A stretch of 63,574 nucleotides of DNA, counting the filler, from Rozella allomycis CSF55 (taxonomy: Eukaryota): assembly GCA_000442015.1 (NCBI GenBank). It is 9 parts of 9 records of this genome, joined end to end, with 100 filler letters (N's around TTAATTAATTAA, not from the genome) between each part and the next. Parts side by side here need not be neighbours in the genome. Positions count along the whole stretch, not along the records: positions 1 to 28,599 come from KE560772.1; 8 more parts are not named here. One strand, 5' to 3'. Positions 8,090 to 36,552 of this stretch are shown here, in pieces. The first letter of the stretch is position 1, and the number at the start of each line of letters is the position of its first letter. The translations under genes were made by a program, and so were the position numbers. The notes beneath the pieces were generated by a model that worked only from the letters and a program-made list of their open reading frames with translations, was not told where the DNA came from and did no database searches.

Positions 8090-9681
8090 ATGACTGGAGA
8101 AATTGAATCACCTGCACAGTTAAGCTATGCAGAAGCAGGCGAAGTAATTGAATATTTATCCACATTGGATTTGAGTGCATTTGGGAGTTTACCGTAAATT
8201 ATCCAAGTTAAACATATTGTAGCTGGTTGGAGAGACATGAGAATTTTGTGAAACTAAATATACAGGTACAAAAACAATTATCGAGCTTAATTCAAGGCTC
8301 ATCTGAATATTGCTAATAATCGTGATGAATATATTGCTGAATTAGTTTGTAAATCAGAAAAAGTAATACCAAATATTTTTGCGACAAAGTCCCATTTATT
8401 TTTGAACGAATTGTTGTTAAGTGAATGCTGGTCAAAAAGAGTGTTTCCAGAAATTGTTAAATCTGCAGACGAAAGAAACAGTGTCATTATATATTTTTCT
8501 GTATGAGCTTTTGAGAAAATATAGAGATAGCTATATCATGAAGCTACACTTGCCAATTTGTTTGATGTTTTCTGCGTGGAAAGTTCTTTTATTAGTAGTT
8601 TGGGAAATCATGTACTGGACTTAATAGACTATTGTCAAAGGTGCTTAAATAGATTAATAACAAAGTAAAAGTAAAAAAGAATTAAGATAGTGAATATAAT
8701 ATCTCAGAAATTCAAGCAATAGACTCTGCGAAAGGATCTCTCATTAATGTATAAAAATTTGACATTAATATTCAAGGAATCATACAACCAAAGCAAAGAA
8801 TTAGAATTTTCAATATCAATTTTTTCATTGTCTATACTTCGTTATCTAACAGACCATTTAGATATTTTGCCCATTAATTCTATTAGTCGATTAATTGACA
8901 CTCATGGTAAATGTAGATTGTTATCATTACAAAGATATAATCCAATCGTTGGTTTGCTTATTGAAACACGCACCTTGGATAAAGAAAGATAATTTAATAC
9001 CAGATAAGATCAAAGTCTTTGAAGACGGTCAATGGAGTTGGGTAGGGATTCCAGATTATGAAAAAGTTTCCAAAGCTGAAGCGCAAGTTTGGTTAACTCT
9101 GCTTAATATTGTAATAAACAAAGATTGTAGAAGAAAATACGAGGTGGATTATTATAGGAAAGAAACTCTTCTCCAAGTACGATCATTCCAGTATTTTTAG
9201 AAGATACGTCCACTTATGGAAAGAAAGAGTCTCTTAGATCAGATTCCAGTGCTTGAACATTTGCAGCGGGCTTTAGACGAAATCGCCATAATGAATGTCA
9301 ATGTTATTCCTTCCAATCAAGCGTTCATGATAAAGGAAATCTCTGAAACTGAATCATTCATTGACCACTATTGGACAAACAATTGCAAGACATTACTCAA
9401 ACAACAAATACAAGTATTTTCTGTTTACAATCATGAAAAACATGTCGAGATATCTAATAAGTAATTTATATCTTGATGTTTAATAATGATTTTCGCAAAT
9501 CTTTGATATTAACAAATTGGATCCAATTATTGCTCCACCGAAATGCTCAAAATGTGGAATGGCTGCTGAGAAGAGATGTTCACGTTGCAAGACAAGCTGG
9601 TATTGCAGTAGACAATGCCAAGTCTCACACTGGAATATGCATAAGAAACTTTGCGATTCAATAATCTCAACAATAAATTAA
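8090..9681 (+). CDS. ZMYND10: Zinc finger MYND domain protein 10 (BLU), axonemal dynein assembly factor
   Basis: WLERHENFVKLNIQAH, LYHEATLANL, KAEAQVWLTL and LLDQIPVLEHLQRAL motifs; C-terminal MYND finger CSKC...RCSRCKTSWYCSRQCQVSHWNMHKKLC; ~9 tiny introns. Confidence 0.92.
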
Positions 9682-10029: not shown

Positions 10030-10098
10030 ATTATACATAACGAGAAATAAAAACTTCCAGAAACGTGTTTGCTTTATTATGACAATAGCTAAATTTGT

Positions 10099-10508: not shown

Positions 10509-10663
10509 AAAAAAACGAGTGGCTGGGATATTAAGAAACCGGATGAATGGATAAAGAGCTAGTTTATATTGAATGCCAAAGTTTAACGAATCGGGTTTAA
10601 TGCAAGTCAAAAAATGGTAAATGAAATTGAAATTTTCGTATTGGAGAGTGTGACGTAATCGAA

Positions 10664-13600
10664 ATGCCTTTTGATCATCGGAATGAGTGTGCGTTTGAAA
10701 AGGCTGGGTTTATTTCAAGAATCTTTTATATGTGGACGAATGCGTTTGTGAATTATAGTTGGAAGAACAATCTAATGCCTTCTGATTTCCCACCCGTTGA
10801 GTAAGGTTTCATGATGAGATATATTAGTGCGGATATGGAAGCGCATAATTTGTTGGATAGATTTGAAACTGCGTGGACTAAAGAAAAGGCGAAGAGTAAC
10901 CCATCATTGATTAGGGCGGTGGTATGGTTTGTAATGTTTGCTAATTAGTGGAGTGTATTCAAGTGGCGTCATTTGTTAACAGGCTTCTATGGGGTACTTG
11001 AGAGTGTGTTCAAAATATCTGGAGCTGTGTTACTTGGCTTCTTGCTTAAATGGTTAAAGAACAATAATGGTGACATATTGCAAGGTAATGATTGTTGATA
11101 AGTTTGAGCATTAGGATGGTTGATTGTTGGATTTCTTTGTGCGAGTATGTTCCTTTATGGGATTGTGCACCATGTGTTATTTTTTTCATCGTATAGACTT
11201 GGAGTGTTTGTGAGGATAACGTTGTCTGCAGCGATTTATGAAAAGACGTTGAAATTGTCGACATCAACGTCGACTTCTACGGGGAAGATTATTAATATAG
11301 TATCTAATGATGTTCAAGTAGGATATTTATATAGCAAAAATAGGTTTTTGACATGGCGTCTCATTTTGCTCATTTTTTGTATGTAGGGCCGATTGAAGTT
11401 TTAATTTCTTATGGATTTCTTGTGTATTGGATTGGATGGTTAGCGTCATCTGCTGGATTGATTGTTATATTTTTGATGCTACCGTTGCAATGGGGGTTTG
11501 CCAAGAGATTTTCTAAACTGAGAGAGAAAATGGTTACTGCTAGGGATGATCGTGTGAGAATTCTGAGTGATTTATTTCATGGGATAATGATTGTAAAATA
11601 CTATTCATGGGAGGAGCCATTTTTGAAGTATATAAATGAAATAAGAAATAAAGAAACGAGATATTTGTTTAAAGCGTCTTGGATGAAGGCGATGAATGAA
11701 GCGCTGTTTTTTGCATCGCCAGTGATGATTTCGCTTGTTTCGTTTGGGACTGCATATTTAGCTGGAGAACAATTGGAGCCTTCTAGTATTTTTTCATCAT
11801 TGGCATTGTTGAATGTTATTAGATTAACAATGACCAATTTCTTTCCGTTGGCTGTGGAATCTGTGAGTGCGTCGCTGATATCTCTTGAGAGAATAAGAGA
11901 GATTCTGGTATCACCTGAAATAGGCATAGAAAATGCAGAGGAGAGCGATGAAGATTTGATTGTTGAGAATGCTTCATTTTCGTGGGGTGTTAATTCTTCT
12001 TCAAGTGGAGATGACAAGATGATTCCAATGCAAGAACATTCCGTGGCTCTAAGGGACTTGGATTTCAAAATAGGACAAGGCGAACTTTGCATTGTGATTG
12101 GAACATTTGGCAGTGGAAAATCATCATTGTTGTTGTCTATTATGGAAGAATTGAAGAAGATTTCAGGTATTACTAAAAAAGCATTTATAACCAGGGTGTT
12201 TAAAGAAGCCAAGGAGGATTAGATATGCGTCACAGAAGCCCTGGATTCTGTCTGGATCGATTAAAGAAAATATACTATTTGGTCAAACGTATGACGAAGA
12301 AGAGATGAATAGGGTTATAGAAGGATGTGCATTGAAGGAAGATTTGCTTAGATTTGATAATGGATTGGAAACAATGATAGGAGAGCAAGGATGTAATTTA
12401 TCAGGGGGACAAAAGGCGAGAATTACTTTAGCGAGAGCTATTTATAAGAGCAAAGATGTAGATTTAATTCTGCTTGATGATGTGATGAGTGCTGTTGATA
12501 ATAAAGTCGCGAATGTAATTTTTAAAACAATAAAAAGACTTGGCAAGATGTGTGTGTTGGCAACCCATCAATGGCAGTTTGTGGAGAAATCAGATAAAGT
12601 TTTAGTTTTGGATAATTCAAAACAAATATTTTTTGGTGGAATTGAAGAATTTTATAAATGGGATAATTTGATTGTTAAAAATGTGATTGAATATAAAGGA
12701 TCTAGATCTAAACAAGAAGAAAATGAAATTGATAAAGATGAAATAGATTTTAAAGGAGATGAAAATGAGAGAAATGAAATTATTAAAGAAGAAGATAGAA
12801 ATGTTGGATCTGTTTCTGGAAAAACTTATAAATATTTTGCTAAAAATGGAGGTAATCTATTTTTCAATCTATTTTTCAGGTGGCTTATCAGTAGTTCTAT
12901 TTTTAGTTTTTGCATTATCGATTGGACAAGCCTCAATAATAATATCAGATCGATGGTTAGCAATTTGGAGTGAATCTGTAGATCAAGAAAATTCAATGTA
13001 TATTATTGTATATTTTGGATTGTTTTTGATTGTGTTAATATTTTCTATAATTAGATCTGTGACATTTTTTAGATTTTGTTTGAAATCTTCGTGTAAAATA
13101 TTTGAATTGATGCTTGGGAGTGCCATGGGATCTAATTTGAATTTTTATCAATCTAATCCACATGGCAGAATATTGAATAGATTTACCAAAGATCAATCTC
13201 AAGCAGACGAAGAACTTCCAACAACATTCTTTGATGCCATTCAGTGCGTCTTTATTGTTCTTGGTGTAATCATTGTAATTTGCTACGTTAATTATTGGCT
13301 AATCATAACGCTTCCATTCATTTTATTTTCTTTTCTTTACGTTAGAAAAATTTATTTGAAATCTTCAAGAGAAATTAAAAGACTTGAAGCAATTTCACGT
13401 TCTCCAATCTATTCTCATCTTTCAATCACTCTGCAAGGGTTACCCATAATTAGATCTTCAAAAATGGAATCTAATTTTAAAAACACTTTTCTAAATTTTA
13501 TAAATGAAAATTCAAAATGTTATTTCGCTTTTATTTTCACTGCTCGATGGCTTGGCATTAGGTACTTTTAATAGATCTATTCCAATTAGATTAGATTTAC

Positions 13601-14616
13601 TTTCTAGTTTATTCTTTACTGTTTCTGTTATTGTTTGTGTTTTAATTAAAGATAAAATAGATCCTGGCCTAGTTGGCTTAGGCTTGGCTTATGTTATGCA
13701 ATTAATCTCTCTTGTTCAAGTAGAAATATTTCTATTTATTTAAAAGTGGTGCACTCGGCAATTAGCTGAAGTAGAAAATTTAATGACTTGCATTGAACGA
13801 ATGCTAGTTTACACTAAACTGCCCCAAGAGAATTGGACTTCTGAATCAAACATTCAGCCGCCCCCCAATTGGCCACAAAATGGTCAAATTGAATTTAATA
13901 ACATGTCTCTATCTTATCCAGAATCAAAATCACCAGCCTTGTCAAACATTAACTGCATCATAAAATCTAAACAGAAAGTCGGCATCGTGGGAACAACAGG
14001 CGCTGGAAAAAGTTCTTTCGTCACTTCCCTCTTCCGTTTCATAGAATCTACCCCTGAAAATTCAATTTCCATCGATAATATTCCAATCCAGAAAATAGAC
14101 TTGAAAACACTCCGTCAATCTCTCTCAATCATTCCTCAAGAATCATTTCTATTCAAAGGAACAGTCAGACTAAATCTAGATCCATTCAATCTGGAAACTG
14201 ACTCGAATCTATGGAGAGTCTTACAACTCGTCCAGCTAGAAAAACTAATAAAATCATTTCCCAATAAACTAGACCAAGAAATACACGAAAACGGTTCAAA
14301 TTTATCTATCGGCGAACGACAGTTAATCTGCCTCGCTCGCGCTATTCTCAGAAAACCCAAAATTCTTATAATGGACGAAGCAACCGCAAACATCGATTCT
14401 ACAACATCAAATCTAATCCAAAATTGCATTCATCAGGAATTTGCCAATTGCACAGTACTCACTATTGCTCACAGACTCAAGACTGTCATGCATTGCGATC
14501 TCATTTTGGTTCTTGATAAAGGCCACATTGTGGAGTCTGGGTCGCCATCCGCTCTCTTGGAAGCTAACGGTGCTTTTATAAAATTGTGCGATGAATTAAA
14601 TAAATCAATTGATTAA
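10664..14616 (+). CDS. ABCC/MRP-family (MRP4-like) full ABC transporter, multi-exon
   Basis: TMD1-NBD1 (GTFGSGKSS, LSGGQKARITLARA, ILLDD) then TMD2-NBD2 (GTTGAGKSS, NLSIGERQL, MDEATAN, TIAHRL); eight short GT-AG introns. Confidence 0.95.
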
Positions 14617-14734
14617 TTTTGGCAAAGTTAATAGCAGTTTTTGAAATCTTAAGGAATTTGCAACTTTGCATATATTCTTATGGATATTAAGAACTTCCCA
14701 CATTTAATTATGTATTTGAAAATGGTAGAAACAA

Positions 14735-14808
14735 GTTTCCATGGTGTAGTTGGTTATCACATCTGCTTAACACGCAGAAGGCCTCCAGTTCAAGTCTGGA
14801 TGGAAACA
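14735..14808 (+). tRNA. tRNA-Val(AAC)
   Basis: Acceptor stem GTTTCCA/TGGAAAC, D-arm TGGTGTAGTTGGTTATCAC, anticodon arm TCTGC-TTAACAC-GCAGA, T-arm TCCAG-TTCAAGT-CTGGA, followed by a TTTT Pol III terminator. Confidence 0.96.
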
Positions 14809-15146
14809 TTTTGTTCATTTTTACTTTTTTCTTTAAATGGTAATCACACTTTTTTTGTCAATATATTAAAATCACCGTCGAAGATATTATCATTACTTAA
14901 ATTTGCAACATTAATCCATTCCTGAAAAAAGTGTCAACTTTGTTCCATTAATAAGTCACACTTGCCTATCAAATATAAGCAATAAATTATTATCCTGCAA
15001 TCAAAAAACCAGGAGATAAACGCTGCAACCACCGGGTCTATTTGACTCGGTTGCGAAACTGGAGACCCAATTGATGAAACGATTTTTTTCGTCAATAATT
15101 TGATTCGCACACAGAAAAAATGTAATCTTCGTAATATTGTGCACAC

Positions 15147-17289
15147 AAAATGCTTCAAAGATAAAATGTCAAATTGGAATTCCCAACAATACATTTTGCA
15201 TCCTTTGACCGTCTTTTCAAGAGAAAACCTAAATTTAGCGTCTAATTATTATTTTGCATTACCTTCTATTTAATTTAAGGGACGATGGCGGAAGACATGG
15301 TTCACCTTTAATAAACGATTATAGTATCGGATTCTGAACCCGAAACACTTCAAAGACAAATGAGCATACCATATGTCCCAATTTTTAAGACGAATAGTTG
15401 GGTCTGCGGGTTACTCAACCCATGAAAATTTCGATTCTGTGCATCTCAAAATCGTTGTTCCGGACCACCTTACGAAAGCAGTTTTTCAATTTGCTGATGA
15501 TGCAATAAATGCTGTATGTCGCGCGACATGGGCAGGAGGGTTGTGCTAATGTTGGTGTTTGACTATGTTAATCTTGTAAAGGAAACTATTTATAGCTACT
15601 GCAGCTATAAGTAATGACAACACAGTCCTGGATAGTTATGTAGGTTCACATGAAATATTTAAAGCCTTACCATTTTGCTCGAAGGAATTTTGTCATTGGA
15701 GTTAAAATTATTGTAAACGGCAATATCTAAGACTGCTTGAACAACCGTCGTTCAATTTTGAAAATTATTTAAAATGAAAAGCTTTCTGAGTTACTCTCTC
15801 AGTTGAGAGAATTTGGTACCATAGTACATTTAACACACATCGATGACAATGCCAAAGTGTTGCAGAGATTAGACAACATTGAGACGACATTGGCAATAGA
15901 CCAAAAATCAAGCAGTGAGACTCATTTCAAACCATGAACGCCCTTAAAAACCGAGTCGCGACCATCGTAAATGAATTTGATCTACTTAATGAGCAGTAAA
16001 AACGAGGATAATGATGTGCCATCGGTTCATAGAGACAGAAATCGTGTGTCCCTATATTTTAGTTTACATTTGGCTACAGAACATTTGCAAAACTTTAAAC
16101 ACCTTAGGATTGTGTTACCACGAGACTTACAAAATTAGGTTTCCAGAATGAAGCAGCAAACTATGTTTGTAATATACTGCCTTGCACCGTTACGTGACGC
16201 AATAAATATTTGAATAAAGAATTTGGGGTTTGTCGTTTTGACATCCAAGAAACGACCACAGTAAAAATGTTGCATTCAGAGGTAAAACCATTAGCCGCAG
16301 ACATTAATGATAGGCATGTCGTAATAACAACAGCGTCAACAATATGCGCCTGTTTGCTGACTGTGAAAACAATGTCATTGATTATTGAAGCACGAAAATT
16401 ACTTTGCATTGTAAGTTTGCAAATTATTGCTCCATTAATTGCCTTAACACCATGGCATGATTGCAAAAGGGTATCGTGTGCTACACCAAGTGCAATATAG
16501 CAGATTGGTTTGAAATATATCCATTGAAGCAAAAGAGACAAAAAGACAAAATGTTAAAAAACGGTACAAAGTGACGACTGGCATATCAGTTAGGTTGATT
16601 GACAAAGATTCAAGCTTAATCGATAATATGGATAAGTATGGAAAGGTTGGGGACCCTTCAATAACACCAGATGATATGGCTGATTGTTTCATTCCAGACG
16701 ACGTCATTTTCCTGGCACATAATGCACTTCGTAATCTTCGGCATAATCTTTTAAAATAAATGTTTATTAAAAGACTGAACATAGTATTATATTTATAAAT
16801 TTGAATTATTTGCAGTTTATCAAATTGCTATTCCATCTTATTCTTTACAATGAACTTACTAGTTGTGTTTTGTTTTTCCGTTTCCATTTTGTGGGGGGGG
16901 GGGTTTGGATAGCCCATTTTGCATGTTGTCCTTTTCGCGCTTGGAAATAGTATTGTTATGTAGCATCAAAACATACAAACACTATTTCGAATGCCCAGGC
17001 TACTAAGGTGGTCTTGTTACAACCTTATGTTAAACACTTAAGACTTTTTCAAAAATGCTTCAAAGTAAACATGTCGAAATGGAATTCCCAACAATACATT
17101 TTACATTCTTTTACCGTATCGTTTTCAAAGAAAACCTAAATTTAGCGTCTAAGATTATGTTACATCACCTTCTAATTAATTTTAGAGCCTATGGCGGAAG
17201 ACATTATTGAGCTTTAATAACCGATTATAATATCGGACTCGGAAGTCAAAACACTTTAAAAACAAACGAACATGCCATATGTCCCAATT
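15147..17289 (+). repeat. Diverged ~240-bp direct repeat (15147-15383 and 17052-17289) inside the decayed inter-tRNA region
   Basis: Shared AAAATGCTTCAAAG, GGAATTCCCAACAATACATTTT, GAAAACCTAAATTTAGCGTCTAA, ATGGCGGAAGACAT and CCATATGTCCCAATT. Confidence 0.85.
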
Positions 17290-19844
17290 ATCCAAGACGT
17301 CGGCAGTAAAAGCTTAGTTAAAACTTATTTTAATTAATTGCCTCAAAGTCTTAGAGACTAATGATTTAGTTCAGTTTGCTAATAATGAAACATTGCAGTC
17401 AATGATACACGAAAATGCAATGCATGTCTATTTCTGTTGAAATGAGCTTTAATAATTCTTCTAATGCTTTCTTTGATTTTAACATACACATTTAACAGAA
17501 TTTCAAAACCTTGATCTATTTGACGACAACGCCTTTAAGCGCCAAAACATAATTCATATAGATGTTTAAACTATAATAAATCCAGAGACCATCACATGGG
17601 TTGACCCATATGTCGGGGTGATCAAATAGCAACATCGGGACTTCGAAAGCGGTAAAATATATCCAACCTTTGTAACTGGTGAGTTGTGAGAGACATGTTT
17701 GTTAACCTTAAATAATAACGCTGTTCCAATTCTCCCTACAATTTTAGAATCCGAAATTCCAAAATCATGTAGCAATGAAATCATAAACAAAACGACACAG
17801 CAGTTGCCTACAGTAAGAGAAAACAAAACCATACTCTTCACATTTTCGCAAAAGAAGAAATATATTTGTCGCCATAAATAAATAAGACATTGTAGGACTT
17901 CAAACACAGGATGATGTAGTTAGTCACCAGCTTACCAAATCTATGTCCGCTTTTGGTGATGGGTTTGATAATCGCAAATAGCTTGCGTCGAGACTTAAGG
18001 CGTAACCACCAGCGTTACGCCAGACGTCTATAATTTTGGCGAACATGTGTATCAAGTGAATGTACGTATGAGTATTGTTTGCACCAAAGTCATATTTTGT
18101 CCAAATGGACTTTCTGCTCTCATGGAGGTAAACATCTGGTTATTGTTGCACATGTTCTTACTGGCTGTTATCTGTGGTGCTTGCCAAGAACGTGCCCTAT
18201 GTCGATAAACGCAAAAACATATATGATGAATGTGTCGCGCATGGGAATCCATGAATGAACTGGATTGTATAATTTGTCGAGTTCATAGCCGGCACTTTGC
18301 ATAAGTTGAGTTATCGGACTGCTAGTTCATATAATGGGTGTTAACCACTTTACTCGCTGCCCAGGCAAACAAACGCAACCATTGGTCTCAAAAATGTTCA
18401 AGTTTTGCAGGTCACTACACGAATCGCGTTTCGCGAAATGCATCGCCGTCCCAACTTTCGTGTCTGTCAATGCTCATTATTAATGAATTATTCCAATTTT
18501 TAATGAGGACCACGATTTAAATGGCAACGTCGTGATACTCACCAGCCCCATTGTAACCCGATAGTACTAAATTTTTAACTCAGTTTTAATCTATGTGTTA
18601 AGTATGTCGCATGTGGTTCCGCTACAAGTTTGAAAACCGACGACATTCGTAAACATTTGTCACTGTGTTACCTCCTTGAAGTCGTCTGCAGCATGATTTC
18701 CAGGGCTTCAAAAAGTTCAATGCCTTGGATTGTTACACCTGCACCATGCACATTTAACGCAATTAATCACCTCGAATCTTGCCTGTGCCAACATGCATCG
18801 CAAATACCAACTCTCATTTAGGCGGAATAAGTTAAAGAACTTAATTATATTTTCTACTTTTCCAACATGATATATCGTTTTTCCACTAAAGCCTCTTAGA
18901 CGTTTTGAGATGATGCATCCATGATACATTATGGACTTCCACTGTCATTTTAAGACAAATGCAAGATCCAAAAAATATACTACACCTCCAAACATTAACA
19001 GATGTATATTATGTGTTTGTTTTTTTAAAAAATATAGAATGTGAAACTGGGGTTGCCGACAGAGGTCACACGTATCCGTTAAGAAATGTACTATGTTTTG
19101 GTCAAGGCAATTATCGCATTACTCTGTTAATATAACATATTTTCCGAAAACATATATTTCTCGTTTGGCAAATATCACTAATATTTATTTTATGAACGGA
19201 CGTTTAAGCTATAAACATAAAACTGAAGTAGAAAAGGAAAAGGCGCTGGTGATAATCATGAAATTTCAGATTAGGACATGACGGCGACACCTTCACATTA
19301 ACTAGAACACATGTAGATTAATGTACATTGAAGCACTCAACCACAGTTACCTCCACGAAACGTAACACACTATCAGTGAAAAACTAATAATTGAGTACAT
19401 GTGGGGCTATGCGCTTAACCCTTTATAAACGTTTAATGAATATCTATATTGGCATCGATGTAACACGGGAAGTTATATACCCTGCGCTTGAACTTTGTTT
19501 CAATGTCGTCACATGGTTACAATTAAAAATTGAATTGCCGATGTTGATTTACATAACTACGAAAGTGGGATTGTTGTGAAATATCAAAGTTCTTTTGGCT
19601 TCTAGTTTCTGTCTTTTTCATTTGAAGCAAGCCTTGTAAAATATATTTTTTATGAGTTTTGTAATATTTTGAGGGACAATCCCCGAAATAGTTGTAAAAT
19701 TCGTTGACCCTGAACACAAATATGACTTTGCGCCATATTTTAATAAGAAATCTTTCTATTTTGAATTTTTTCGTTTATAGCAACAGCCAGAGCTCGAACT
19801 GCCTTATCCAAATACAATTTCTCTCAAGAAAACGACAAATATAT

Positions 19845-19918
19845 GTTTCCATGGTGTAGTTGGTTATCACATCTGCTTAACACGCAGAAGGCCTCCAGTT
19901 CAAGTCTGGATGGAAACA
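19845..19918 (+). tRNA. tRNA-Val(AAC), identical second copy
   Basis: Sequence identical to 14735-14808, again followed by TTTT. Confidence 0.96.
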
Positions 19919-20087
19919 TTTTAAGACCACATGATTCCTTTTTCCTTAAAGTTTACGTTTCATTTTATAACAGTAATGGTTTAAAAATTTGAGAAAGATT
20001 ATAACAGTAATGGTTAAAAGTAAAAATTTGAGAAAAATTAGTTAATCGATCCATTTTCAGTTTTAGGAAAATTCAGCATTAATTTTC

Positions 20088-21717
20088 ATGAGCGATGACC
20101 ATGTAGTTCCCGTTAATGAAAACGTTTTACCATTAAAAAACGAGGTTAAATTACAAGCCGAAACTATACCCGAAAGAAAATCGAGTAAATCTGACAAGAA
20201 ATCCCTTTACAATCCATGGAAGGTTTTCCTTAATGACTTGGATCAACTTGATTACAGCAGTTCACAAGCTTTGAAAAGAGAAAGAGTGTATAACTTTCTT
20301 TTGATACCTAACCAACTTGAAAAAGTATCTTTGTTGCAGGCTTTATAGAAGGTTATGTGTTTTGGCTATTTCATATGCATGGATGCTTTTCTATATATGT
20401 TCACTATATTTCCCATTCGATTAATATTAGGACTATATGAATTAATTTTAAAGAAGTACATAGATTTAATAACACACATAGGAAATTGAGCATTGCAAGA
20501 AGATGCGATTTTCTTAAAGGTCTAATTATTTTTTGTGCCGTTTTATTGCTTCAAGAGATCAATTCTTCTATTCTATATCATTCAATTAGGGGGCAATCAG
20601 TGGTTAAACTTTATGTCATATTCAATGTATTAGAAGTAAGCACACTATGTCATGTTTAAATGATTTGTGATAAATTATGTTGTTCCTTCGGCCAGGATAT
20701 TCTGGATTCCTATTTGTCGAGCTTTTTGGATTTGCAAGATACAAAAATGGAAGAGCATCAGAAGTTAAGGCCTTTTACTCATTTCGTCTTGAGTGTAATT
20801 TACGTGTTTGTTCACGCGGTGGTATTTTTCTATCAATCCGTTTGCCTAAACGTAGCAATTAATTCGTATCATAATGCGTTGTTGACTCTTTTAATATCCA
20901 ATCAGTTTGTGGAAATAAAAGGAGCTGTGTTCAAAAGATTCGAAAAAGAAAATCTATTTCAGATGACGTGTAGTGGTACTTGACTTATTTTAGTTTATAA
21001 CAAGATATTGTTGAAAGAGTTCAACTCTCATTCTATTTGATTATAATCGGGCTAAGAAATATGATTGAAATGGGTGATAGTTTGAACAAATGGGACTACT
21101 TTTTCAATACTTTAGGTTTTCAGCTCTTGGTGGTTTTTGTCTGTGAAATATGTGTTGATTGGTTAAAGCATGCCTTTATTTGCAAATTCAATCTTATAAG
21201 GCCCATAATATATGGAAAATATCGCGATGTTTTGTCCAATGATTTGACAAAAGTGGACAAGCCTGTTGATAATTCGGCATTTGTTGCCCGTAGGATCGGA
21301 TTCGCATCAATTCCAGCTACTGCATTTGTAATTTAGGGTTAAATCTTTCAATTTTAGATCATCAGAGTAGCCATACAGCTTGGAAAAATGTTTGGGCTCA
21401 ATTCTCGAGAAATTGTTACTTATGGCCTTATACTTTTTCTTTGGTAAGACCTTAATTTATAATGTATGAAGCTTGTTATGTGTAAAACTATTACTCTCGC
21501 ATCTAATTTTACGTTGGGCAAACAATAATGTGCAGAAATATGAGAATCCAGGGCCCATAGTATCATTATATGCATCTTAAAATAGGAATTTTCATTTCCC
21601 CATGTTAAAGTCGGGCATCAGCTTGGAAAAGATTTTGATAATGCAAAAATTCAAGTTCCGGTACATACTCTTGAGAATATTGATAGATACACCTTAGTAA
21701 AATCCAGAATCCCGTAA
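20088..21717 (+). CDS. TAPT1: TAPT1/Emp65 (DUF747) ER membrane protein, multi-exon
   Basis: IRGQSVVKLYVIFNVLE, DKLCCSFGQD, LNVAINSYHNALLTLLISNQFVEIKGAVFKRFEKENLFQ, VDWLKHAFICKFN and terminal IDRYTLVKSRIP. Confidence 0.93.
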
Positions 21718-21819
21718 ATTCATTTCAATTGATTGTAAAATAAATTACTCTTGAACAATGATATGCCATATTTATTTTGAATGATATGTATTGGTTTAAA
21801 TGAATTTATACATTCAATT

Positions 21820-22689
21820 TCAAATAATGAACCAATCTTTACAAGAATTGCTTAACCCGTAATGATTTTGAACAGATTCCCTTACGAATTCGAGGGACCA
21901 GGGAATTCTTAAATGAAGGTTTCCTCTAACAGGCTTATTAAGAATTAAAGTTAAATTTTTGATGAAGTATGGTATTTCCCTATCGGTCACTTCTATTCCC
22001 AGATGAAAAAGCAAAGAAATGGTATAATGCGACAAATAGCTATGCATTTCACAGATGTGGTAAAAGTCATGATCTAACTTATTCTTATACATGAACTTTC
22101 TATATGTCTGTAGATCTAAAATTACCAAAGCAGAGTCCGATTCACATTCTATCCCAATGTTCACTAATTTTGCGATTACCCTTAACAATAAAGTAGTATA
22201 TTGGAACAATGCATGTGATATGTCGGTTGGCAGGATATCGAAACGATGGTTTTCTGGAACTTTTAAATTGAACAATTTGAAGTAGAACTTGCTAGGCTTT
22301 GTGATAAAGGTTGAAAGACGCTTTAGATTTTTAGAAACAACATCAAAATATATATTCATAACATCTGAATTCCTAAGTTCTAATTGTTTTTTAACCGAGC
22401 GCCCAGGTAACGGAGCTCTGAATCTGACTCTTTGAGCGATATTGAAATTATTCTCCTTCAAATTATTAACACATTCAATAAGATTATTCCTTTTAATGGT
22501 TTCATCTTTCACTAGCTTTTGGAAAAGATCTCTGCGAATAAGCAACTGATAGACTTGGACCAAGTTATGATTTTTTTGCACCACTTTACCTTTAATCCTA
22601 TTATGGTGTTTAAAATACGCGTACATTTCCTTGACACATGTAGAACAAATCATAAAATTTAATTCCTTACTACAATACTCGCATTCCAT
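21820..22689 (-). CDS. Hypothetical protein, possibly an Atg14/Vps38-like PI3K complex subunit
   Basis: N-terminal CEYC...CSTC pair followed by coiled coil and a C-terminal DWFII; in-frame 27-nt intron at ~22598-22624. Family call is tentative. Confidence 0.5.
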   Translation of the reverse strand: MECEYCSKELNFMICSTCVKEMYAYFKHHNRIKGKVVQKNHNLVQVYQLLIRRDLFQKLVKDETIKRNNLIECVNNLKENNFNIAQRVRFRAPLPGRSVKKQLELRNSDVMNIYFDVVSKNLKRLSTFITKPSKFYFKLFNLKVPENHRFDILPTDISHALFQYTTLLLRVIAKLVNIGIECESDSALVILDLQTYRKFMYKNKLDHDFYHICEMHSYLSHYTISLLFHLGIEVTDREIPYFIKNLTLILNKPVRGNLHLRIPWSLEFVRESVQNHYGLSNSCKDWFII

Positions 22690-22725
22690 AATCTGATTTG
22701 GCTTAGCTGAACAGGAGCTTAAATC

Positions 22726-23773
22726 ATGATGCAACAACAGAAATACTCCTTTAACTTTCTCGCAGATAAATTGGATAATTTTCCATCAGAAAAATATGAT
22801 AAATTGATATATCCCTTTTATCATAACGATATACTGATTGGTGCCGTCCGTGATCAGACCTGGCGTATAATAGCGTCGAATGCTACAAAAGACTTGTTAA
22901 CAGTTTTCACATTTAAGGAAAACAAAATTACATATGTCGGCCTAAATTTAAGCGAAGACCTGCGAGCATTAATTCACTTTTGCAAAGAAAAACAATTGTT
23001 TAGTGTACTCGATAAATGGCGAAATGAAGAATATATTATTTATGGACAAAGTAAATTTTGTTATTTCTACGTTAAAGAATGCCTATCTCATAACGAAGAC
23101 AATAATAATTACACCAAATGTTTGGTTAATGTAGGCACGGTGGAAAGATCTGCTGTTGGCTTATTTGGCTTTAAAAGTTATGGAGTACATTTGAATGCCT
23201 TCTTTTACTCATCGGATGGAGAATGTTTCATGTGGATAGGCCAACGTTCCCATACAAAGGACTTTTATCCTAATCACTACGACCAAATGGTATTATATGT
23301 AATAGGTAAACAAAAGGTTGCTGGAGGCCTTTGCGTTCCTTTGACGCCTTACCAGTGTTTGGTAAAGGAATGCAAGGAAGAAGCAAATTTGGACGTTTGT
23401 TCCATTGGCTCTGACTTGAAAGAAGTTGGTACAATAAGCTATATAAACAGTATTGAGGAAGGCATATACCCTGAAACCCAGTACATTTTCGATCTCGAAA
23501 TTGGTGATTCATTTGAACCACAAAATACAGACGGTGAGGTTTCAGCATTCCATTGTATGCCAATTAGAAAAGTAATCTTTTAAATTTAATATATTAATGG
23601 TTATTGATGAAGTTATTTCTGGAAAGTTCAAACCTAACTGCGCTGCTGTGATAATAGACTTTTGCCTTAGACATGGATACCTCAAAGCGCGAGAAATTCA
23701 AAACTCCGAAAGTATTCTAAAGCATATCTATTGCTTGAATTCACCATTAGACTTAATAAACCGCTTAAAATAA
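22726..23773 (+). CDS. Nudix hydrolase of the YJR142W/DUF4743 (thiamine-pyrophosphate-related) type, multi-exon
   Basis: KWRNEEY, ERSAVGLFGFKSYGVHLN, MWIGQRS...DQMVAGG, Nudix box KECKEEANL, NTDGEV and FKPNCAAVIIDFCLRHG. Confidence 0.9.
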
Positions 23774-23798
23774 ATTGTGGCTTACTTCTTGAAAGTTA

Positions 23799-24826
23799 AT
23801 GTCCCAAAATTCAACAACGGGTATTCCAGAAAATGCACCTTCTCGTATATTTTTTCTTTATTTTTTATTAGATTGTCCTGGTCCGTCAAGTGAAAAGGCC
23901 GGATATTCTTCTTCTTGCTCGGGATGTCCGAATCAAAAAGTATGTGCCACAGCACCAAAAGGACCAGATCCTGACATACCTTTGATTAATGAGAGAATGG
24001 AAAGTGTTAAAAGAAAAATATTGATTTTATCTGGCAAAGGAGGTGTTGGGAAAAGTACTGTAACATGTCAACTCGCGCATGCACTGTCCGAGAAAAAGGA
24101 TTTGGAGGTATAGATATGAATGTACTAATATAAGATTGCTGTTTTGGACATTGATGTATGCGGACCATCTGTCCCACAAATGTTTGGCATCAACAATGAA
24201 AATGTACACGCCTCCAACTTTGGATGGACCCCAATTTATGTGAAAGATAATTTAGCTGTTATGTCAGTTGGGCTTCTTTTAGAAGATAAAGATTCCGCCA
24301 TTATTTGGAGGGGGCAAAAAAAGAATGGCATGATCAAGCAGTTTTTGAAAGATGTTGAATGGGGTAACGTCGATATCATGCTTGTTGATACTCCACCAGG
24401 AACATCAGATGAACACATTTCAATTATCCAGCTATTAAAAGAGTGCGGTGTAGACGGGGCTGTTATCGTTACCACACCACAAGAAATATCCCTGCAAGAT
24501 GTTAGAAAAGAAGTAGACTTTTGTCATAAAGTGGGGATACGTGTATTAGGAGTTGTTGAAAACATGGGTCAATTTTCCTGTCCAAAGTGCAAAGTAAACA
24601 CGTTAAATTTTTGTTTTAGAATACATCATATATATTTCCACCATCTTCTGGAGGGGCTCGAAAAATGGCAGAAGAATTAAATATCCCTTTTTTAGAATCT
24701 ATTCCATTGGATCCACTAATAGGAAGGTCTAGTGACTTTGGAGAATCTTTGAAGGAATCTCAAAATTCAATTGCCAATTTGATCTATTCTAAGATGGTTG
24801 ATAATGTTTTATCTTTAATAAACTGA
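23799..24826 (+). CDS. NBP35: Cytosolic Fe-S cluster assembly factor Nbp35/NUBP1
   Basis: N-terminal [21 protein letters not shown]-loop [29 protein letters not shown] and ENM..FSCPKC; three GT-AG introns. Confidence 0.96.
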
Positions 24827-24828
24827 TT

Positions 24829-25218
24829 TTGTTAGTATTTGGAATATTTAAAAATAGAATGCAACTAAATATATTTGTTGTCACTAAAGTGGCGGGTTCA
24901 AGTATGAACAAAAACATCGAAATCGAAGGCCAATCGATCAACGATAGAATGCATGATGCGGCATATAATATTGTCATGGAAATGATCAGCAGTGTCGCAC
25001 ACGTGAAAAATCAAAAGTCGGCATTTACTATCAAACTTAGTTCGTCTAAGTGCAACTCTAAAAAGCTAAAATTTAGACCAAATTCAAAAAACAAGAAAGA
25101 TAGATCTAGCGCCCTGGAATTTCTTGAGCTAATTGAAAGGTCTGAAAGAGAACTATTACAACAAGAATTACAAAGAGATTTCGGCAAGCGACGAAAGCAT
25201 CAAAAAGTGAAACAATGA
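24829..25218 (+). CDS. Hypothetical protein
   Basis: 129-aa ORF filling the gap between genes; no recognisable motif, start codon uncertain. Confidence 0.4.
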   Translation: MLVFGIFKNRMQLNIFVVTKVAGSSMNKNIEIEGQSINDRMHDAAYNIVMEMISSVAHVKNQKSAFTIKLSSSKCNSKKLKFRPNSKNKKDRSSALEFLELIERSERELLQQELQRDFGKRRKHQKVKQ

Positions 25219-25672
25219 AATAAATATTAGTCCAGAATATTAAACTTCTTTGATGCCTTAAAGTAGGCGTCTTCAAAGTAGAATGTATCAATACCTACAT
25301 TTTAAAAGTTAAAACATTCAAAGTCGGTTTGGTATCGTTCTTTGATTAACACATTTGACAACACGATGTCTTGAATGGTCATTGTCAAAAAAGGTAGCAA
25401 AAGTTGGTGGGCGTCACATGGCTGTACTGCAATGCCAAGGACACCCTTGAGTTTATCCGAAGCAAGCCTCGAATAAACTCCCAGGAGACAAATTAATTTG
25501 AAAGTTGATGACTCCAGTGGAGTCACTTTAGCTTTCAAACTAAAGAGAACAGATACTACACTTGATCTAAGCCAGAGGCTTGAGATTGGTGACCTTAGTG
25601 AAATTTACAAAACTTAAAGGTAAATTGTTTTGAAAATTCATCCTTGTGGGTTTCAACTGTTTAATGTAAAAA

Positions 25673-26830
25673 TTATTTATTTAAAGTGCTAGCATGTTTT
25701 TTTCTTAATCTTTTCGTGTCTCCAACTCCAAGCCTAATTTTTATTATGAAAATGTTTTACATTGGAAGACCCTTATTAAGACCCTCTAAAAGGACGCAGG
25801 CTTTGCAAACTTTATTACTAGAAATATAGCCACATCGTTCGCAGATCATTTGAGTAGGAGTTTTAACATTCTCCTTTATCTCAAAGGCTTCCCCGGAATA
25901 AATTATATCTGTAACAATAAAAAAATCAGATTACCAAGTATTATAGAAGGCCTTATTGCTTCGAGTTCTTTAAGATATGTTCTGGCGAACCCTCTGTATG
26001 CCATTGGTGAATAAATGCATTCAGTAGAAAAATAATCAAGTTTTTTGAAATAAGCATACATAACTATTTCCTTTTCATATGTGTATTTGAATGGTTTTGA
26101 TCTAGGTACGGTTACTCCACCGTTTTCGTCGCATGTTGATATAGCAGTGCATCGCCCTAATCTGGATATATCTCCTCGTAAAACTATTTCTCATAATAAA
26201 TGTTTTTACTGTTCATTAACACAGTTTCCGCAACATCGTCCGCATTGTGCCCAGTAACGATATGATCAACGTTTAATAGGGCAGCCCCTCTGTCTAATGC
26301 CTGCCTTCTAAAGACACCACAAAAAGTACCTATTTATTTACAAAACTCATCACATTACAGTTATTTTTAAGCCCGACTTGCTTCACGATTTCATCCATTG
26401 TCCAACCATATAATTCTTCGTACGAAACAATTTTTAATGGTAAATCATATTGTAGCTGGTTTCTTTTGACAGTCTAAAATATTGTATGGCTATTTTATAC
26501 CTCTAATGAATCATCTCTGTATCCAGTGATTCCTTCATCAACTGACAATAGAAACAGGTCTAGGCCGTAATCATATCGCTCATTTAAAAGCTTTAAAACA
26601 TAAGCTAATACAGTAGAGTCTAATCTATCTCATTAATTCTGAATACCTTTGCCACCAGACGCACCAATGGCAATTTTGTCTCCGCGCTTAAATAGATTTG
26701 TTTGAACAATTGTTTGATGGATCTCAGTTTCAAAAACAAAAAAGAAGCATTCTTTGCAAATAGCTTGTGCAGTTTTAGGTCGCTTTATAATGGCTCTATG
26801 CTCACCACAAAGTTCACAAAGTTTTGCCAT
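25673..26830 (-). CDS. NCS6: Cytoplasmic tRNA 2-thiolation protein 1 (Ncs6/CTU1), multi-exon
   Basis: CELC...[65 protein letters not shown] and C-terminal CERCG...CKAC; six GT-AG introns. Confidence 0.96.
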
Positions 26831-26864
26831 TGTGGCTTAGGACAAAGTAGAACAGAAAATAGAT

Positions 26865-28370
26865 TTATTCGATTGAAATAAGAGAATTAATAGTTTTTCG
26901 GCGATTATTTAAACTTTTGTCATCTTTTTGGGATTGAGGTGAAGTGAATAGAAATGAGGAAGCAAATTCAGGTTCATCGTCAACAACTTTTCTATCCGCA
27001 GATTCGGCAGCGGCAGGTTTTTCTGCAATTTTCGTTTCTTTTAATACTTCTAATTCCTTTTGGGGTGAGCTTTTTCCTGGATTTGCAGAAGAGTTTCCAT
27101 TTTCAACAGTAGATCTGATATGAGCTATAAGGTCATTAATGGCACCCTCACTTACAACTTTCTGGATAACTTTTGTAATCAATTCCTCAACATTTTCACT
27201 GCCACTTTGCTTTATTAGATCTTTCATTTGATTAATTTCTGGAAGTGGAGACGTCTTAGTGTTTGACAATAAAGACTCGATTTCATTTACCGCCTTAATT
27301 GAAAAGAATTGGCCTTCATTAAGGCAATCGACTTCAATAATATTAGATGAGACTGCTTCCAAAATAAACAATTGCCAGGAAGAAAATGGGCTGGATTTTA
27401 GGAAACGATGCAAATGAGGAAGAGCGCCCATCTGAGAAGACGACACTGGAAGTTTTGTAGTTTTCAGTAATTCCCTCGCAAAATCTGAAATTAAAGACAC
27501 TAATGATTCATCTTTCTTAAATGGAGACAAAGAAATATAGCAAATCGTTCCTTGGTGATCCAGAAAAATCCTTTTAAGACAGCAGGCATGATAAAAGAAT
27601 CTGATCAATTTTTTGTAACCAAATTTCATAATTTCTTCTCTTACATTTCCTGGGAGAGCATTCGCGACGTTAACAATCGTGTCAGAGCCTTTTCCTGCCA
27701 AGTACTTTTCTAACCAGGATATTACAGTGTCCATCATACACGGAAAATCAGTTATGGTAGGAATATCGTCCAAATCTGAAGCCTTTACCTTTTTCTTTTT
27801 GGAGCTCGGTTCATTGGGATCTTCTAACGCGCGTTTTTGATTTAAACTTGTATTTGGCGGTGGTAAATTTTGCAGTTTGTCAACAACGTCACTGGGATAC
27901 TCAATATCGCCAGGGGGAGCTGGTCTAAAAGCCCAATCTTTCTTTTCTGAATCATATCGGCCAACCAAAACACGAGCAGCAAACCCTCCAAAAATGAAAT
28001 CTTTGAAACTTTTGAATTTGCAAAGATCTATTCTTTGGCTCATTTTACTGCCAATATCTTTTAGCCAATTATCTTCGGTTTTCCTCAGCTGGACAATCAA
28101 GGGTAGAAACGGTTGAGCATCTTCTAAATCTATATCGCCAGGAAGTGCAAAGATCCATTCTCCATTATGGTAAATAGCGTCTGTGTATCCCCTGGCCATA
28201 GCGTCCATTAAAAATAGAGACTGCTTCTTGTAAACATTGGATGGTATTTCCTTTGGGTATAACGTGTTAAATTTTTGAAGTAGAATACTTAATGTCGGCT
28301 TTTCAGATATAGGAAAGGTGTTCAACACATCCAAGACCTTTAGGAAAAGTTGTGCTTTTGTTCCAACCAT
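26865..28370 (-). CDS. Hypothetical intronless protein with putative tandem OST-HTH/LOTUS-like repeats
   Basis: Long ORF (likely ATG at 28370) with four similar segments ending YKKQSLFLMDA, FKSFKDFIFGG, FGYKKLIRFF and FSSWQLFILEA. Domain call is inference. Confidence 0.65.
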   Translation of the reverse strand: MVGTKAQLFLKVLDVLNTFPISEKPTLSILLQKFNTLYPKEIPSNVYKKQSLFLMDAMARGYTDAIYHNGEWIFALPGDIDLEDAQPFLPLIVQLRKTEDNWLKDIGSKMSQRIDLCKFKSFKDFIFGGFAARVLVGRYDSEKKDWAFRPAPPGDIEYPSDVVDKLQNLPPPNTSLNQKRALEDPNEPSSKKKKVKASDLDDIPTITDFPCMMDTVISWLEKYLAGKGSDTIVNVANALPGNVREEIMKFGYKKLIRFFYHACCLKRIFLDHQGTICYISLSPFKKDESLVSLISDFARELLKTTKLPVSSSQMGALPHLHRFLKSSPFSSWQLFILEAVSSNIIEVDCLNEGQFFSIKAVNEIESLLSNTKTSPLPEINQMKDLIKQSGSENVEELITKVIQKVVSEGAINDLIAHIRSTVENGNSSANPGKSSPQKELEVLKETKIAEKPAAAESADRKVVDDEPEFASSFLFTSPQSQKDDKSLNNRRKTINSLISIE

Positions 28371-28403
28371 GTGGCTTGACCAAAAGCAAGAGACAGATGT
28401 ATA

Positions 28404-28535
28404 TTTTTTTAAATATATCAACATTTTTTATTGATTAAAAATAGTACAAAATTCGTTTTCCACGAAGTGAAATCTTCCGTGTCGAGGAGAATTGTACAAG
28501 TAAAGTGCCTGTGAATTAGGGTTTCTGGGAAAAAT
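28404..28535 (-). repeat. 3' end of a poly(A)-tailed LINE-derived repeat (other copies ~51105-51228 and 51339-51432)
   Basis: TTCCCAGAAAC...CACGGAAGATTTCA...CTTCGTGGAAAACGAATTT is shared by all three copies; the ...ATGTTGATATATTTAAAAAAA tail is shared with the ~51105-51228 copy. Confidence 0.75.
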
Positions 28536-28699
28536 ATTATATATAGACCAAAGTCTTTATCAACTCAAGAATTTAGAAGCATCATCAATCAATTAAGTTN
28601 NNNNNNNNNNNNNNNNNNNNNNNNNNNNNNNNNNNNNNNNNNNTTAATTAATTAANNNNNNNNNNNNNNNNNNNNNNNNNNNNNNNNNNNNNNNNNNNN

Positions 28700-35958: not shown

Positions 35959-36552
35959 TTTTGGTGGCAAAGTCGCTTTTTGGTTGAATTAAGATTACTA
36001 CCTTTTAGAAAATAATTCATTCAAATTCTTTATTTTCTTAGTTGGTTAATGGGTTATTGTTAAATCTTGTTATATTGAATTGATTTGCAATGCACATATC
36101 ACATTGTTTTATAATCCATCATAATTAAACGTTGCCAGTTGCAAGTCTAATAAGGTTTGCCCTTTAATTGAACTCAGGGGTGTGGCCTTTGAAGAGTAAC
36201 AAGCAAATATTACCATCCAAAAAATGAAGGTAGATTAGGTGCTAACTTTGCAAGTTTACCTTTGGTGATACTTGAATGAAAAATAGACTTTAAAGCTTAC
36301 TTTATTCAGGCTGTACTTATCGTGTTCCCTGTGCATTAATTGACCTAAGCTTAATTAATAGGCAACCTTGAGTCTGCCGAGTCGGCCAATAAGAAGAAAA
36401 GATTTTGAATTAAATTTGATTTATAGAAAGTTAGGTTTAAGGTTTTTGAAGNNNNNNNNNNNNNNNNNNNNNNNNNNNNNNNNNNNNNNNNNNNNTTAAT
36501 TAATTAANNNNNNNNNNNNNNNNNNNNNNNNNNNNNNNNNNNNNNNNNNNNG

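What the first reader, a model, noticed from the sequence alone, without database searches (positions are those of the whole stretch)
23572..23599. Non-canonical GT...AATG intron #3 (Nudix gene): a recurring alternative 3' splice-site class
Seen: ...AGA AAA|GTAATCTTTTAAATTTAATATATTAATG|GTT ATT GAT GAA. There is an in-frame stop, and the nearest AG (23611-23612) is out of phase for this donor. The 28-nt TG-ending intron gives FHCMPIRKVIDEVISGKFKPNC with family-typical spacing. About 3 of roughly 50 introns I traced end in (T/A)AATG, all 27-28 nt, in three unrelated conserved genes. Known: TG acceptors are normally rare alternatives beside an AG. Inference: the spliceosome may define tiny introns by length and accept TG constitutively, which would cause systematic mis-annotation.
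Basis: partly seen in the sequence, partly recalled or inferred. Interest (0 to 1): 0.85.

Follow-up and report, generated by a model that had tools for sequence, protein, structure and literature searches.

The report
Tiny introns ending in TG
In the fungus-like parasite Rozella allomycis, three conserved genes only make sense if a 27-28-base intron ending in TG instead of the near-universal AG is cut out, and the public gene models get all three genes wrong.

Summary
The window is Rozella allomycis CSF55. The public protein model uses that AG, giving a 55-nt intron that drops nine residues.

A profile of 111 homologues prefers the 28-nt GT..TG removal: 212.8 bits, against 193.8 for the public model. 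It also ranks top among 1242 motif-blind deletions.

The two sister cases are real:
- 20636-20662 (DUF747/TAPT1) sits where 23 of 23 inspected orthologous introns from other eukaryotes are GT-AG.
- 9461-9488 is the only way to attach a MYND zinc-finger exon, and no GT..AG solution exists there.

All three lengths (28, 27, 28 nt) fall in the window's intron class of 26-29 nt. All three end AATG. All three are mis-modelled in the public annotation.

No RNA evidence could be obtained, and reading-frame statistics alone do not single out TG.

Verdict: probably real constitutive GU-UG introns, making up roughly 6-10% of introns here. This is a new variant of spliceosomal intron and still needs transcript proof.

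The parts
23572..23599 (+). Proposed 28-nt GT..TG intron (third intron of the DUF4743/NUDIX gene), phase 0, ends TATTAATG
   Evidence: Sequence. Best HMM score of four models (212.8 bits). Top of 1242 motif-blind deletions, and the only GT-starting member of the tied top group. Its length lies in the 26-29 nt class.
23600..23626 (+). 27 nt coding for nine residues (V-I-D-E-V-I-S-G-K) that the public model P0001 treats as intron
   Evidence: P0001 maps to 22729-23571 and then 23624-23770. Homologues carry 12-13 residues here, and the TG model aligns with a one-residue gap while the public model has a 10-column gap.
22729..23773 (+). DUF4743/NUDIX hydrolase gene. Exons are 22729-23050, 23078-23289, 23317-23571 and 23600-23770, with stop TAA at 23771-73. 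Canonical 27-nt GT..AG introns lie at 23051-23077 and 23290-23316.
20636..20662 (+). 27-nt GT..TG intron in the DUF747 (TAPT1/EMP65-type) gene, phase 0, with an in-frame TAA, ends GTTTAAATG
   Evidence: Pfam DUF747 profile positions 4-50 and 51-148 abut exactly across it. It is top of 1170 deletions. tblastn of P0122 shows a 9-residue gap exactly here. Its position is shared with GT-AG introns in 36 of 46 environmental homologues, of which 23 of 23 inspected are GT..AG.
9461..9488 (+). 28-nt GT..TG intron joining the N-terminal part of a MYND-finger protein (ZMYND10-like; that name is recalled) to its MYND exon, phase 2, ends TTTAATAATG
   Evidence: Stop TAA at 9462-64, and three stops (TAA TAA TGA) at 9481-89 in the downstream frame. 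No GT..AG model among 893. The joined model aligns without a gap to HMM positions 298-440.
9489..9681 (+). MYND zinc-finger exon with no start codon of its own, absent from the public model P0241
   Evidence: zf-MYND at 45.7 bits. P0241 ends at the stop that overlaps the donor. 6 of 9 top homologues carry a C-terminal zf-MYND.
25402..25592 (-). U2 snRNA gene with the standard branch-point-binding GUAGUA box
   Evidence: Rfam RF00004 at 139.2 bits, full length, with the alignment shown.

Best explanation
23572-23599 is a genuine major-spliceosome (U2-type) intron of Rozella allomycis, of the organism's ultra-short 26-29-nt class. Its last two bases are UG instead of AG. It belongs to a small recurrent subclass (three in this window) that ends AAUG and must be removed constitutively to give the conserved protein.

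Inferred mechanism: in these minimal introns the 3' cut site is fixed mainly by its distance from the 5' splice site and branch region. The terminal G is kept, and position -2 is tolerated as U. The three 3' ends are one A-to-U change away from the common ...UAAAAG / UUAAAG type of end seen in canonical introns here.

What is shown: the sequence, the length class, the homology fit, one conserved intron position and the mis-annotation. What is inferred: excision in RNA, constitutive use and the ruler mechanism.
For: 1. Of four explicit models, TG28 scores 212.8 bits against a profile of 111 homologues. A 1-nt frameshift with no intron scores 202.5, the public 55-nt GT..AG model 193.8, and the 58-nt GT..AG model 187.2.
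2. In a motif-blind test, 1242 stop-free in-frame deletions were scored. The top score is shared by eight 28-nt deletions that give the same protein, and only 23572 starts with GT.
3. The GTA..AG solutions that bridge ORF pairs peak sharply at 26, 27, 28 and 29 nt (8, 8, 5 and 5). Other lengths from 15 to 57 nt give 0-2, the same level as control dinucleotides. 55 nt therefore lies outside the class and 28 nt inside it.
4. Sister case DUF747: the Pfam profile abuts at positions 50|51 across the 27 nt, and this deletion is top of 1170 models. Of 46 environmental homologues in which both flanking exons aligned, 36 have an intron at this exact spot. I inspected 23 of those 36 (13 apparent duplicates dropped), and all 23 are GT..AG.
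5. Sister case MYND gene: none of 893 models is GT..AG. The 28-nt deletions score 132.8-133.6 and align without a gap. 6 of 9 top homologues have the C-terminal MYND finger that only this splice provides.
6. All three public models fail at these sites.
7. All three share a GTAA donor, 27-28 nt length, an AATG end and high A+T content (0.67-0.89).
8. In yeast lacking Prp18, non-YAG 3' sites including BG (B = C, G or U) are used, especially close to the branch point (PMC10711555, passages read). UG is therefore chemically usable.
Against: - There is no RNA evidence. The only listed run held next to none of the stretch, and laying it gave five spurious pieces.
- By reading frames alone TG is not enriched: 1 junction at ORF score >=8 and 2 at >=5, while AA, TA and TT give 11-18 at the lax threshold.
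- For the NUDIX gene an in-phase GT..AG alternative exists (55 nt). The 28-mer ends in TATTAAT, one of the best branch-site-like heptamers in the set (score 8.0). This could mean branch site plus downstream AG rather than a 3' end.
- Homology cannot fix the borders to the nucleotide. 31-nt and 19-nt deletions score within 2 bits, and a one-base-shifted AG..AT reading gives the same or a slightly better protein in all three genes.
- The sample is three introns from one assembly, and that assembly has single Ns at two frame breaks.
- In humans TG acceptors are never the sole site (PMC2374985, abstract and section 12).
Confidence: 0.74

Rival explanations
1. The public model is right for this gene. 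The intron is the canonical 55-nt GT(23572)..AG(23626), the TATTAAT at 23592-98 is its branch site, and the Rozella enzyme simply lacks nine residues.
For: It has canonical ends and is in phase. It is used by the deposited annotation (P0001). TATTAAT scores 8.0 as a branch-site-like motif, and the same heptamer is internal to the canonical intron at 33425.
Against: It scores 19 bits lower against 111 homologues, with a 10-column gap in a conserved helix-like stretch. 55 nt is outside the 26-29-nt class, with counts at background level. The first AG after that motif (23611-12) is out of phase. The same rescue is impossible at 9461 (no GT..AG model among 893) and at 20636 (the next AG gives 61 nt, out of frame, by direct reading).
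Confidence: 0.1
2. The T at position -2 is not what the organism splices. It is either an assembly or base-call error for A, or a recent mutation in the sequenced strain, so the introns are, or recently were, ordinary ...AAAG introns.
For: Each of the three ends becomes a common canonical end (TAAAG / TAAAAG type, seen at 23051, 46581, 55109 and 6184) by a single T-to-A change. The scaffold contains single Ns that coincide with frame breaks at 34338 and 53764.
Against: It needs three independent substitutions, each at the same functional position, in called (non-N) bases. Indels cannot explain them, because the lengths already fit both frame and class. Null splice mutations in three conserved genes with otherwise intact exons are unlikely: the MYND exon scores 45.7 bits and the DUF747 exons 59.8 and 152.3 bits.
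Confidence: 0.07
3. TG is used only as a minor alternative next to a dominant AG, as in vertebrate TG-AG tandems. The functional isoform is rare or regulated.
For: At this intron, AGs lie 13 and 27 nt downstream of the TG. That is within the 28-nt limit reported for human tandems (PMC2374985 section 12).
Against: At 9461 no AG follows within about 80 nt (direct reading), and at 20636 the next AG is 34 nt away and out of frame. Position -3 is A in 3 of 3 here, whereas human TG sites prefer a pyrimidine. Without the TG junction no full-length conserved product exists for any of the three genes.
Confidence: 0.05
4. There is no intron. A one-base error in the T/A runs (23578-23587) creates a false frameshift, and the gene reads straight through.
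For: A one-base deletion model is open and scores 202.5 bits.
Against: It scores 10 bits below the TG model and adds a nine-residue insert that no homologue has. The 28 nt are 89% A+T like introns. It does not explain the other two sites, which carry in-frame stops.
Confidence: 0.02

Closest known systems
TG alternative 3' splice sites of vertebrate U2-type introns (Szafranski et al. 2007, PMC2374985; abstract and section 12 read)
   Same: A GT donor and a TG acceptor in an otherwise U2-type intron. At the NUDIX intron an AG lies within 28 nt downstream.
   Different: The human sites are never the sole acceptor, always sit in a TG-AG tandem and prefer a pyrimidine at -3. Here the TG junction is the only one that gives the conserved protein in three genes, one case has no AG within about 80 nt, and -3 is A in 3 of 3.
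Non-YAG ('BG') 3' splice sites activated in S. cerevisiae lacking Prp18 (Roy et al. 2023, PMC10711555; abstract and passages read)
   Same: UG-type ends are used by a U2-type spliceosome, favoured close to the branch point. Prp18 is described there as a ruler and fidelity factor.
   Different: In yeast this is a mutant phenotype producing minor aberrant isoforms. Here it would be the wild-type, productive route. Whether Rozella has Prp18 or Slu7 could not be tested.
Ultra-short intron systems (Paramecium and Nyctotherus about 25 nt, PMC5014332, listing and abstract only; microsporidian short introns and the ~30-nt R. allomycis S23 introns, PMC6349667, passages read)
   Same: A very narrow length class (26-29 nt here), weak branch-site consensus and very compact genes.
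   Different: I am not aware that those systems have a recurrent non-AG acceptor. That is recall, and my searches found none.
U12-type (minor spliceosome) introns with non-canonical termini
   Same: Tolerance of unusual terminal dinucleotides and a short branch-to-3' distance.
   Different: The 5' ends here are GTAATC, GTAATT and GTAAGC, not the extended U12 donor box (consensus recalled). They match the window's 26 of 26 canonical GTA donors.

Membership tests
U2-type (major) spliceosomal intron | GT at the 5' end with the organism's donor consensus | tested here: met
   The donor is GTAATC. All 26 canonical introns compiled have GTA, with A or T at +4 in 24 of 26.
U2-type (major) spliceosomal intron | AG at the 3' end | tested here: not met
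   The intron ends in TG. 26 of 26 canonical introns in the window end in AG.
U2-type (major) spliceosomal intron | Length within the species' intron length class | tested here: met
   It is 28 nt long. The GTA..AG solutions peak at 26-29 nt (26 solutions), with 0-2 at other lengths up to 57 nt.
U2-type (major) spliceosomal intron | Branch site able to pair with U2 GUAGUA upstream of the 3' site | tested here: inconclusive
   The U2 gene in the window has the standard box. The best heptamer, TATTAAT, ends only 2 nt before the cut, and a weaker TTTAAT lies 10 nt upstream. Many canonical introns here also lack a clear motif.
U2-type (major) spliceosomal intron | Removal restores the conserved reading frame and family alignment | tested here: met
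   212.8 bits, the top of 1242 models.
U2-type (major) spliceosomal intron | Excision seen in RNA | not testable with these tools
   The only listed run (X1) does not hold the stretch.
Vertebrate-type TG-AG tandem acceptor | TG used only as an alternative beside an AG within 28 nt | tested here: not met
   The AG distances are 13 and 27 nt here, but about 80 nt or more at 9461 and 34 nt at 20636. Isoform ratios could not be tested.
Vertebrate-type TG-AG tandem acceptor | Pyrimidine preferred at -3 | tested here: not met
   A at -3 in 3 of 3. The human preference comes from PMC2374985 section 12.
U12-type intron | Extended conserved 5' donor box (consensus recalled, not from a call) | tested here: not met
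   The donors are GTAATC, GTAATT and GTAAGC.
DUF4743 + NUDIX hydrolase (host gene) | N-terminal DUF4743 followed by the NUDIX fold | tested here: met
   As single exons both Pfam hits are below their cut-offs (17.3 against 25, and 15.6 against 21.1). The whole gene scores 212.8 bits against a profile of 111 homologues, most of which carry PF15916 and/or PF00293.

The most novel reading that the evidence does not exclude
Rozella allomycis splices several per cent of all its 26-29-nt introns at AAUG instead of AG. Its spliceosome places the 3' cut by a molecular ruler and has relaxed reading of position -2, perhaps through loss or change of second-step fidelity factors (Prp18, Slu7, Prp22, the Prp8 alpha-finger) or of U2AF35. 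That would make it the first eukaryote known to me with constitutive, productive GU-UG major-type introns at per-cent frequency, and hundreds of its published gene models would be truncated or have exons skipped.
Probability: 0.45. Interest if true: 0.8.

Novelty: new variant of a known kind. Interest (0 to 1): 0.68.

Why it matters
The AG at the 3' end of major-type introns is among the most invariant signals in eukaryotic gene expression. A lineage that productively uses UG in a few per cent of its introns would be a natural experiment on how the second catalytic step reads the 3' site. It would also show how intron miniaturisation changes that reading.

There is a practical side too. Rozella is the reference genome for Cryptomycota and is used in phylogenomics of fungi and microsporidia. 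Here 3 of 3 affected public proteins are wrong: one lacks nine residues, one lacks about 105 residues of membrane domain, and one lacks its zinc finger. Gene-content and domain-loss inferences for this lineage may therefore be biased.

Tried and rejected
- **RNA evidence.** No RNA holder was listed. The look-up of sequencing runs gave one metatranscriptome (X1) with next to none of the words. Laying it on 8800-28599 gave five short, partly fitting pieces and no joints. This is no evidence either way.
- **Own genome.** None is held, so U2AF1, Prp8, Slu7 and Prp18 and a genome-wide tally could not be examined.
- **ORF-only statistics.** These do not single out TG.
- **Other AATG-ended candidates** were rejected after reading. 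For 28447-28422 and 52782-52810 the ATG is a likely start codon. 21748-21721 is in an intergenic or 3'-end context. 16402-16376 lies in an open antisense frame.
- **Apparent unsolved junctions** at 622-870/867-1874, 24823/24805 and 3454/3469 are gene boundaries. Those at 53764 and 34338 coincide with single Ns. The GT..AA candidate at 11601-11575 lies in antisense-overlapping ORFs and was not followed.
- **Close relatives in metagenomes.** No near relative of Rozella turned up (best segment identities 61-74%), so conservation of the TG itself could not be tested. Only the conserved position could.
- **IRE1/XBP1-type or archaeal BHB-type excision** was considered and set aside on reading only, with no formal test. 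The ends are GTA donors like all other introns here.
- **Literature.** James et al. 2013 is not held. The RNA-seq in PMC6699826 is of Trachipleistophora, not Rozella. PMC13644364 and PMC7072748 hold no mention of GT-TG or Rozella. Supplements were not opened.
- **Prior report.** Searches found no paper linking Rozella with non-canonical splice sites. This covers the held library only.

Full report
**What the window is.** The best database match to the gene around the finding is a Rozella allomycis CSF55 protein. P0001 (locus tag ROZALSC1DRAFT_27132) is 93% identical over 100% of a read-through translation of 22729-23571. Two other genes in the window also hit R. allomycis proteins at 99-100% identity. 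G+C is about 35%. Genes are packed 25-40 nt apart. No whole genome is held for this window.

**The observation.** The 28 nt at 23572-23599 start GTAATC, end TTAATG and are 89% A+T. The upstream frame meets TAA at 23581-83, and the downstream exon (23600-23770, stop at 23771-73) is in the +1 frame. The AG at 23611-12 is indeed out of phase (41 nt).

It is in phase (55 nt) and is the acceptor used by the deposited model. P0001 maps to 22729-23571 and then 23624-23770, and it lacks nine residues.

**Which model fits the family.** The gene is a DUF4743 + NUDIX hydrolase. I built a profile from 111 homologues (P0001 excluded, lengths 270-420) and scored four explicit models:

| Model | Score (bits) |
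|---|---|
| 28-nt GT..TG | 212.8 |
| One-base frameshift, no intron | 202.5 |
| Public 55-nt GT..AG | 193.8 |
| 58-nt GT 23555..AG 23612 | 187.2 |

The TG model aligns with a single-residue gap. The public model leaves ten profile columns empty.

To avoid assuming any motif, I enumerated every deletion that starts at 23530-23599, is 1-89 nt long, restores the frame and is stop-free. That gave 1242 models. The top score is shared by eight 28-nt deletions starting at 23571-23578, all of which encode the same protein, and only 23572 starts with GT. Resolution is limited, because 31-nt and 19-nt deletions score within 2 bits.

**The length class.** I took ORF pairs with positive coding score and asked which GTA..AG segments bridge them. 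The solutions peak at 26, 27, 28 and 29 nt (8, 8, 5 and 5). Every other length from 15 to 57 nt gives 0-2, the same as control dinucleotides. That approach gave 25 candidate canonical introns at 23 junctions.

With five more placed by homology or reading (23051, 23290, 20325, 20456, 23845), I count at least 28 GT..AG introns, all 26-29 nt. Internal AGs closer than about 24 nt to the donor are skipped in several of them. A 55-nt intron would be an outlier, and 28 nt is typical.

**The two sister introns.** A scan for GT...AATG segments with open flanks found 9461-9488 (28 nt) and 20636-20662 (27 nt), plus others that I rejected on reading.

(a) *20636-20662* lies in a DUF747 (TAPT1/EMP65-type) gene.
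- The exon before it matches Pfam profile positions 4-50 and the exon after it positions 51-148.
- Of 1170 motif-blind deletions, the GT..TG 27-mer is top at 282.3 bits, tied with a one-base shift that gives the same protein.
- A Paraphysoderma homologue (P0122) aligns with nine-residue gaps exactly at this element and at a canonical 27-nt intron at 20325-20351.
- Among 75 environmental loci encoding relatives, 46 had both flanking exons aligned. Of these, 36 have an intron of 30-91 nt at this exact codon boundary and 10 have none. I inspected 23 of the 36, dropping 13 apparent duplicates, and all 23 are GT..AG.

The Rozella element therefore occupies an old, widely shared intron position.

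(b) *9461-9488* follows a donor that overlaps a TAA. It is followed by three stops in the downstream frame, and then by a 63-codon exon encoding a MYND finger (45.7 bits) with no start codon before the first cysteines.
- The relatives of the upstream part are mostly 400-500 residues long.
- 6 of the 9 tested carry a C-terminal zf-MYND.
- Of 893 deletion models none is GT..AG. The 28-nt deletions score 132.8-133.6 bits and align without a gap to profile positions 298-440.

**The public annotation.** All three sites are mis-modelled:
- P0001 drops nine residues.
- P0121 jumps from 20324 to about 20693 and loses roughly 105 conserved residues, including two correctly spliceable canonical introns.
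- P0241 stops at the TAA on the donor and has no MYND domain.

**Shared features.**
- All three start GTAA, follow an exon ending in AA, and are 27-28 nt long.
- All three end AATG.
- Position -3 is A in 3 of 3, against 9 of 26 canonical introns.
- Each end is one T-to-A change away from a common canonical end of the ...TAAAG / TAAAAG type.
- Two of them end in strong branch-site-like heptamers followed by G (TAATAAT, TATTAAT). I cannot explain this, and it also feeds the main rival for the NUDIX gene.
- A U2 snRNA gene in the window (25402-25592, minus strand) has the standard branch-binding box.

**What speaks against.**
- No transcript evidence exists here.
- ORF statistics alone do not lift TG above other dinucleotides.
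- The NUDIX gene has a canonical in-phase alternative.
- Homology cannot fix borders to the base, and a one-base-shifted AG..AT reading gives equal scores.
- The sample is three introns from one scaffold, and that scaffold has single Ns at two frame breaks.
- Three independent A-to-T errors or mutations at -2 would also explain the data. I judge that unlikely because the exons are intact and conserved.

**Comparison with what is known.**
- In humans TG acceptors exist but only beside an AG within 28 nt, never as the sole site, and with a pyrimidine at -3 (PMC2374985, abstract and section 12). The Rozella cases differ on all three counts in at least one intron.
- In yeast, removing Prp18 unleashes non-YAG sites, including C/G/U-G, near the branch point. 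Prp18 is described there as a ruler that imposes a minimum branch-to-3' distance, and some eukaryotes lack Prp18 and Slu7 (PMC10711555, passages). That offers a concrete, untested mechanism.
- Short (~30 nt) R. allomycis introns lacking clear motifs have been noted in passing (PMC6349667, passage), as has an intron density of 2.5 per kb (PMC8476143, passage).
- My searches found no paper linking Rozella with non-canonical splice sites. The genome paper is not held, and supplements were closed.

**Verdict.** The reading is partly supported. It is a new variant of a known kind, of clear interest to splicing and annotation specialists, and it needs RNA proof.

Noticed in passing
window 25402-25592 (-): A full-length U2 snRNA gene (Rfam 139.2 bits) with the standard GUAGUA branch-binding box lies between protein genes.
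   Followed up: partly
window 20325-20692 (+): The public DUF747 model (P0121) skips about 105 conserved residues. The skipped stretch holds two ordinary 26-27-nt GT..AG introns (20325-20351 and 20456-20481), apparently because the third intron ends in TG.
   Followed up: yes
L001-L075 (metagenome loci), position equivalent to window 20635/20663: The phase-0 intron between the ...L-E and I-x-D codons of DUF747/TAPT1 is present in 36 of 46 environmental eukaryotic homologues, with lengths of 30-91 nt. It is an old, conserved intron position.
   Followed up: partly
window 28600-61097 (nine blocks) and about 25 single positions: A repeated N pattern (44 N, 12 bases, 44 N) occurs nine times, and there are many single Ns. 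The single Ns at 34338 and 53764 coincide with reading-frame breaks in otherwise long ORFs.
   Followed up: partly
window 36503-45949 (-): A very large minus-strand ORF array (pieces of 968, 393, 267, 311 and 1113 codons) has strong GC skew and internal near-duplicate segments (for example 40280-40308 and 42251-42279). It is probably one giant repetitive gene, and its frame junctions were not resolved.
   Followed up: no
window 53660-53720 and 54165-54225 (+): Two similar copies of a 2-oxoacid dehydrogenase E2 catalytic-domain segment lie about 500 nt apart. This is either a tandem paralogue or an assembly duplication.
   Followed up: no
window 14735-14808 and 19844-19919 (+): Two tRNA-Val(AAC) genes with identical Rfam scores (63.2 bits) lie 5 kb apart.
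   Followed up: no
window 9483-9488 and 23592-23598 (+): Two of the three TG introns end in a strong branch-site-like heptamer immediately followed by the terminal G (TAATAAT-G and TATTAAT-G). The same TATTAAT is an internal motif in the canonical intron at 33425-33397. This is unexplained.
   Followed up: partly
window 11601-11575 (-): A 27-nt GTA..AA segment (74% A+T) bridges two minus-strand ORFs that overlap a stronger plus-strand ORF. It is either a chance solution or another non-AG intron.
   Followed up: no
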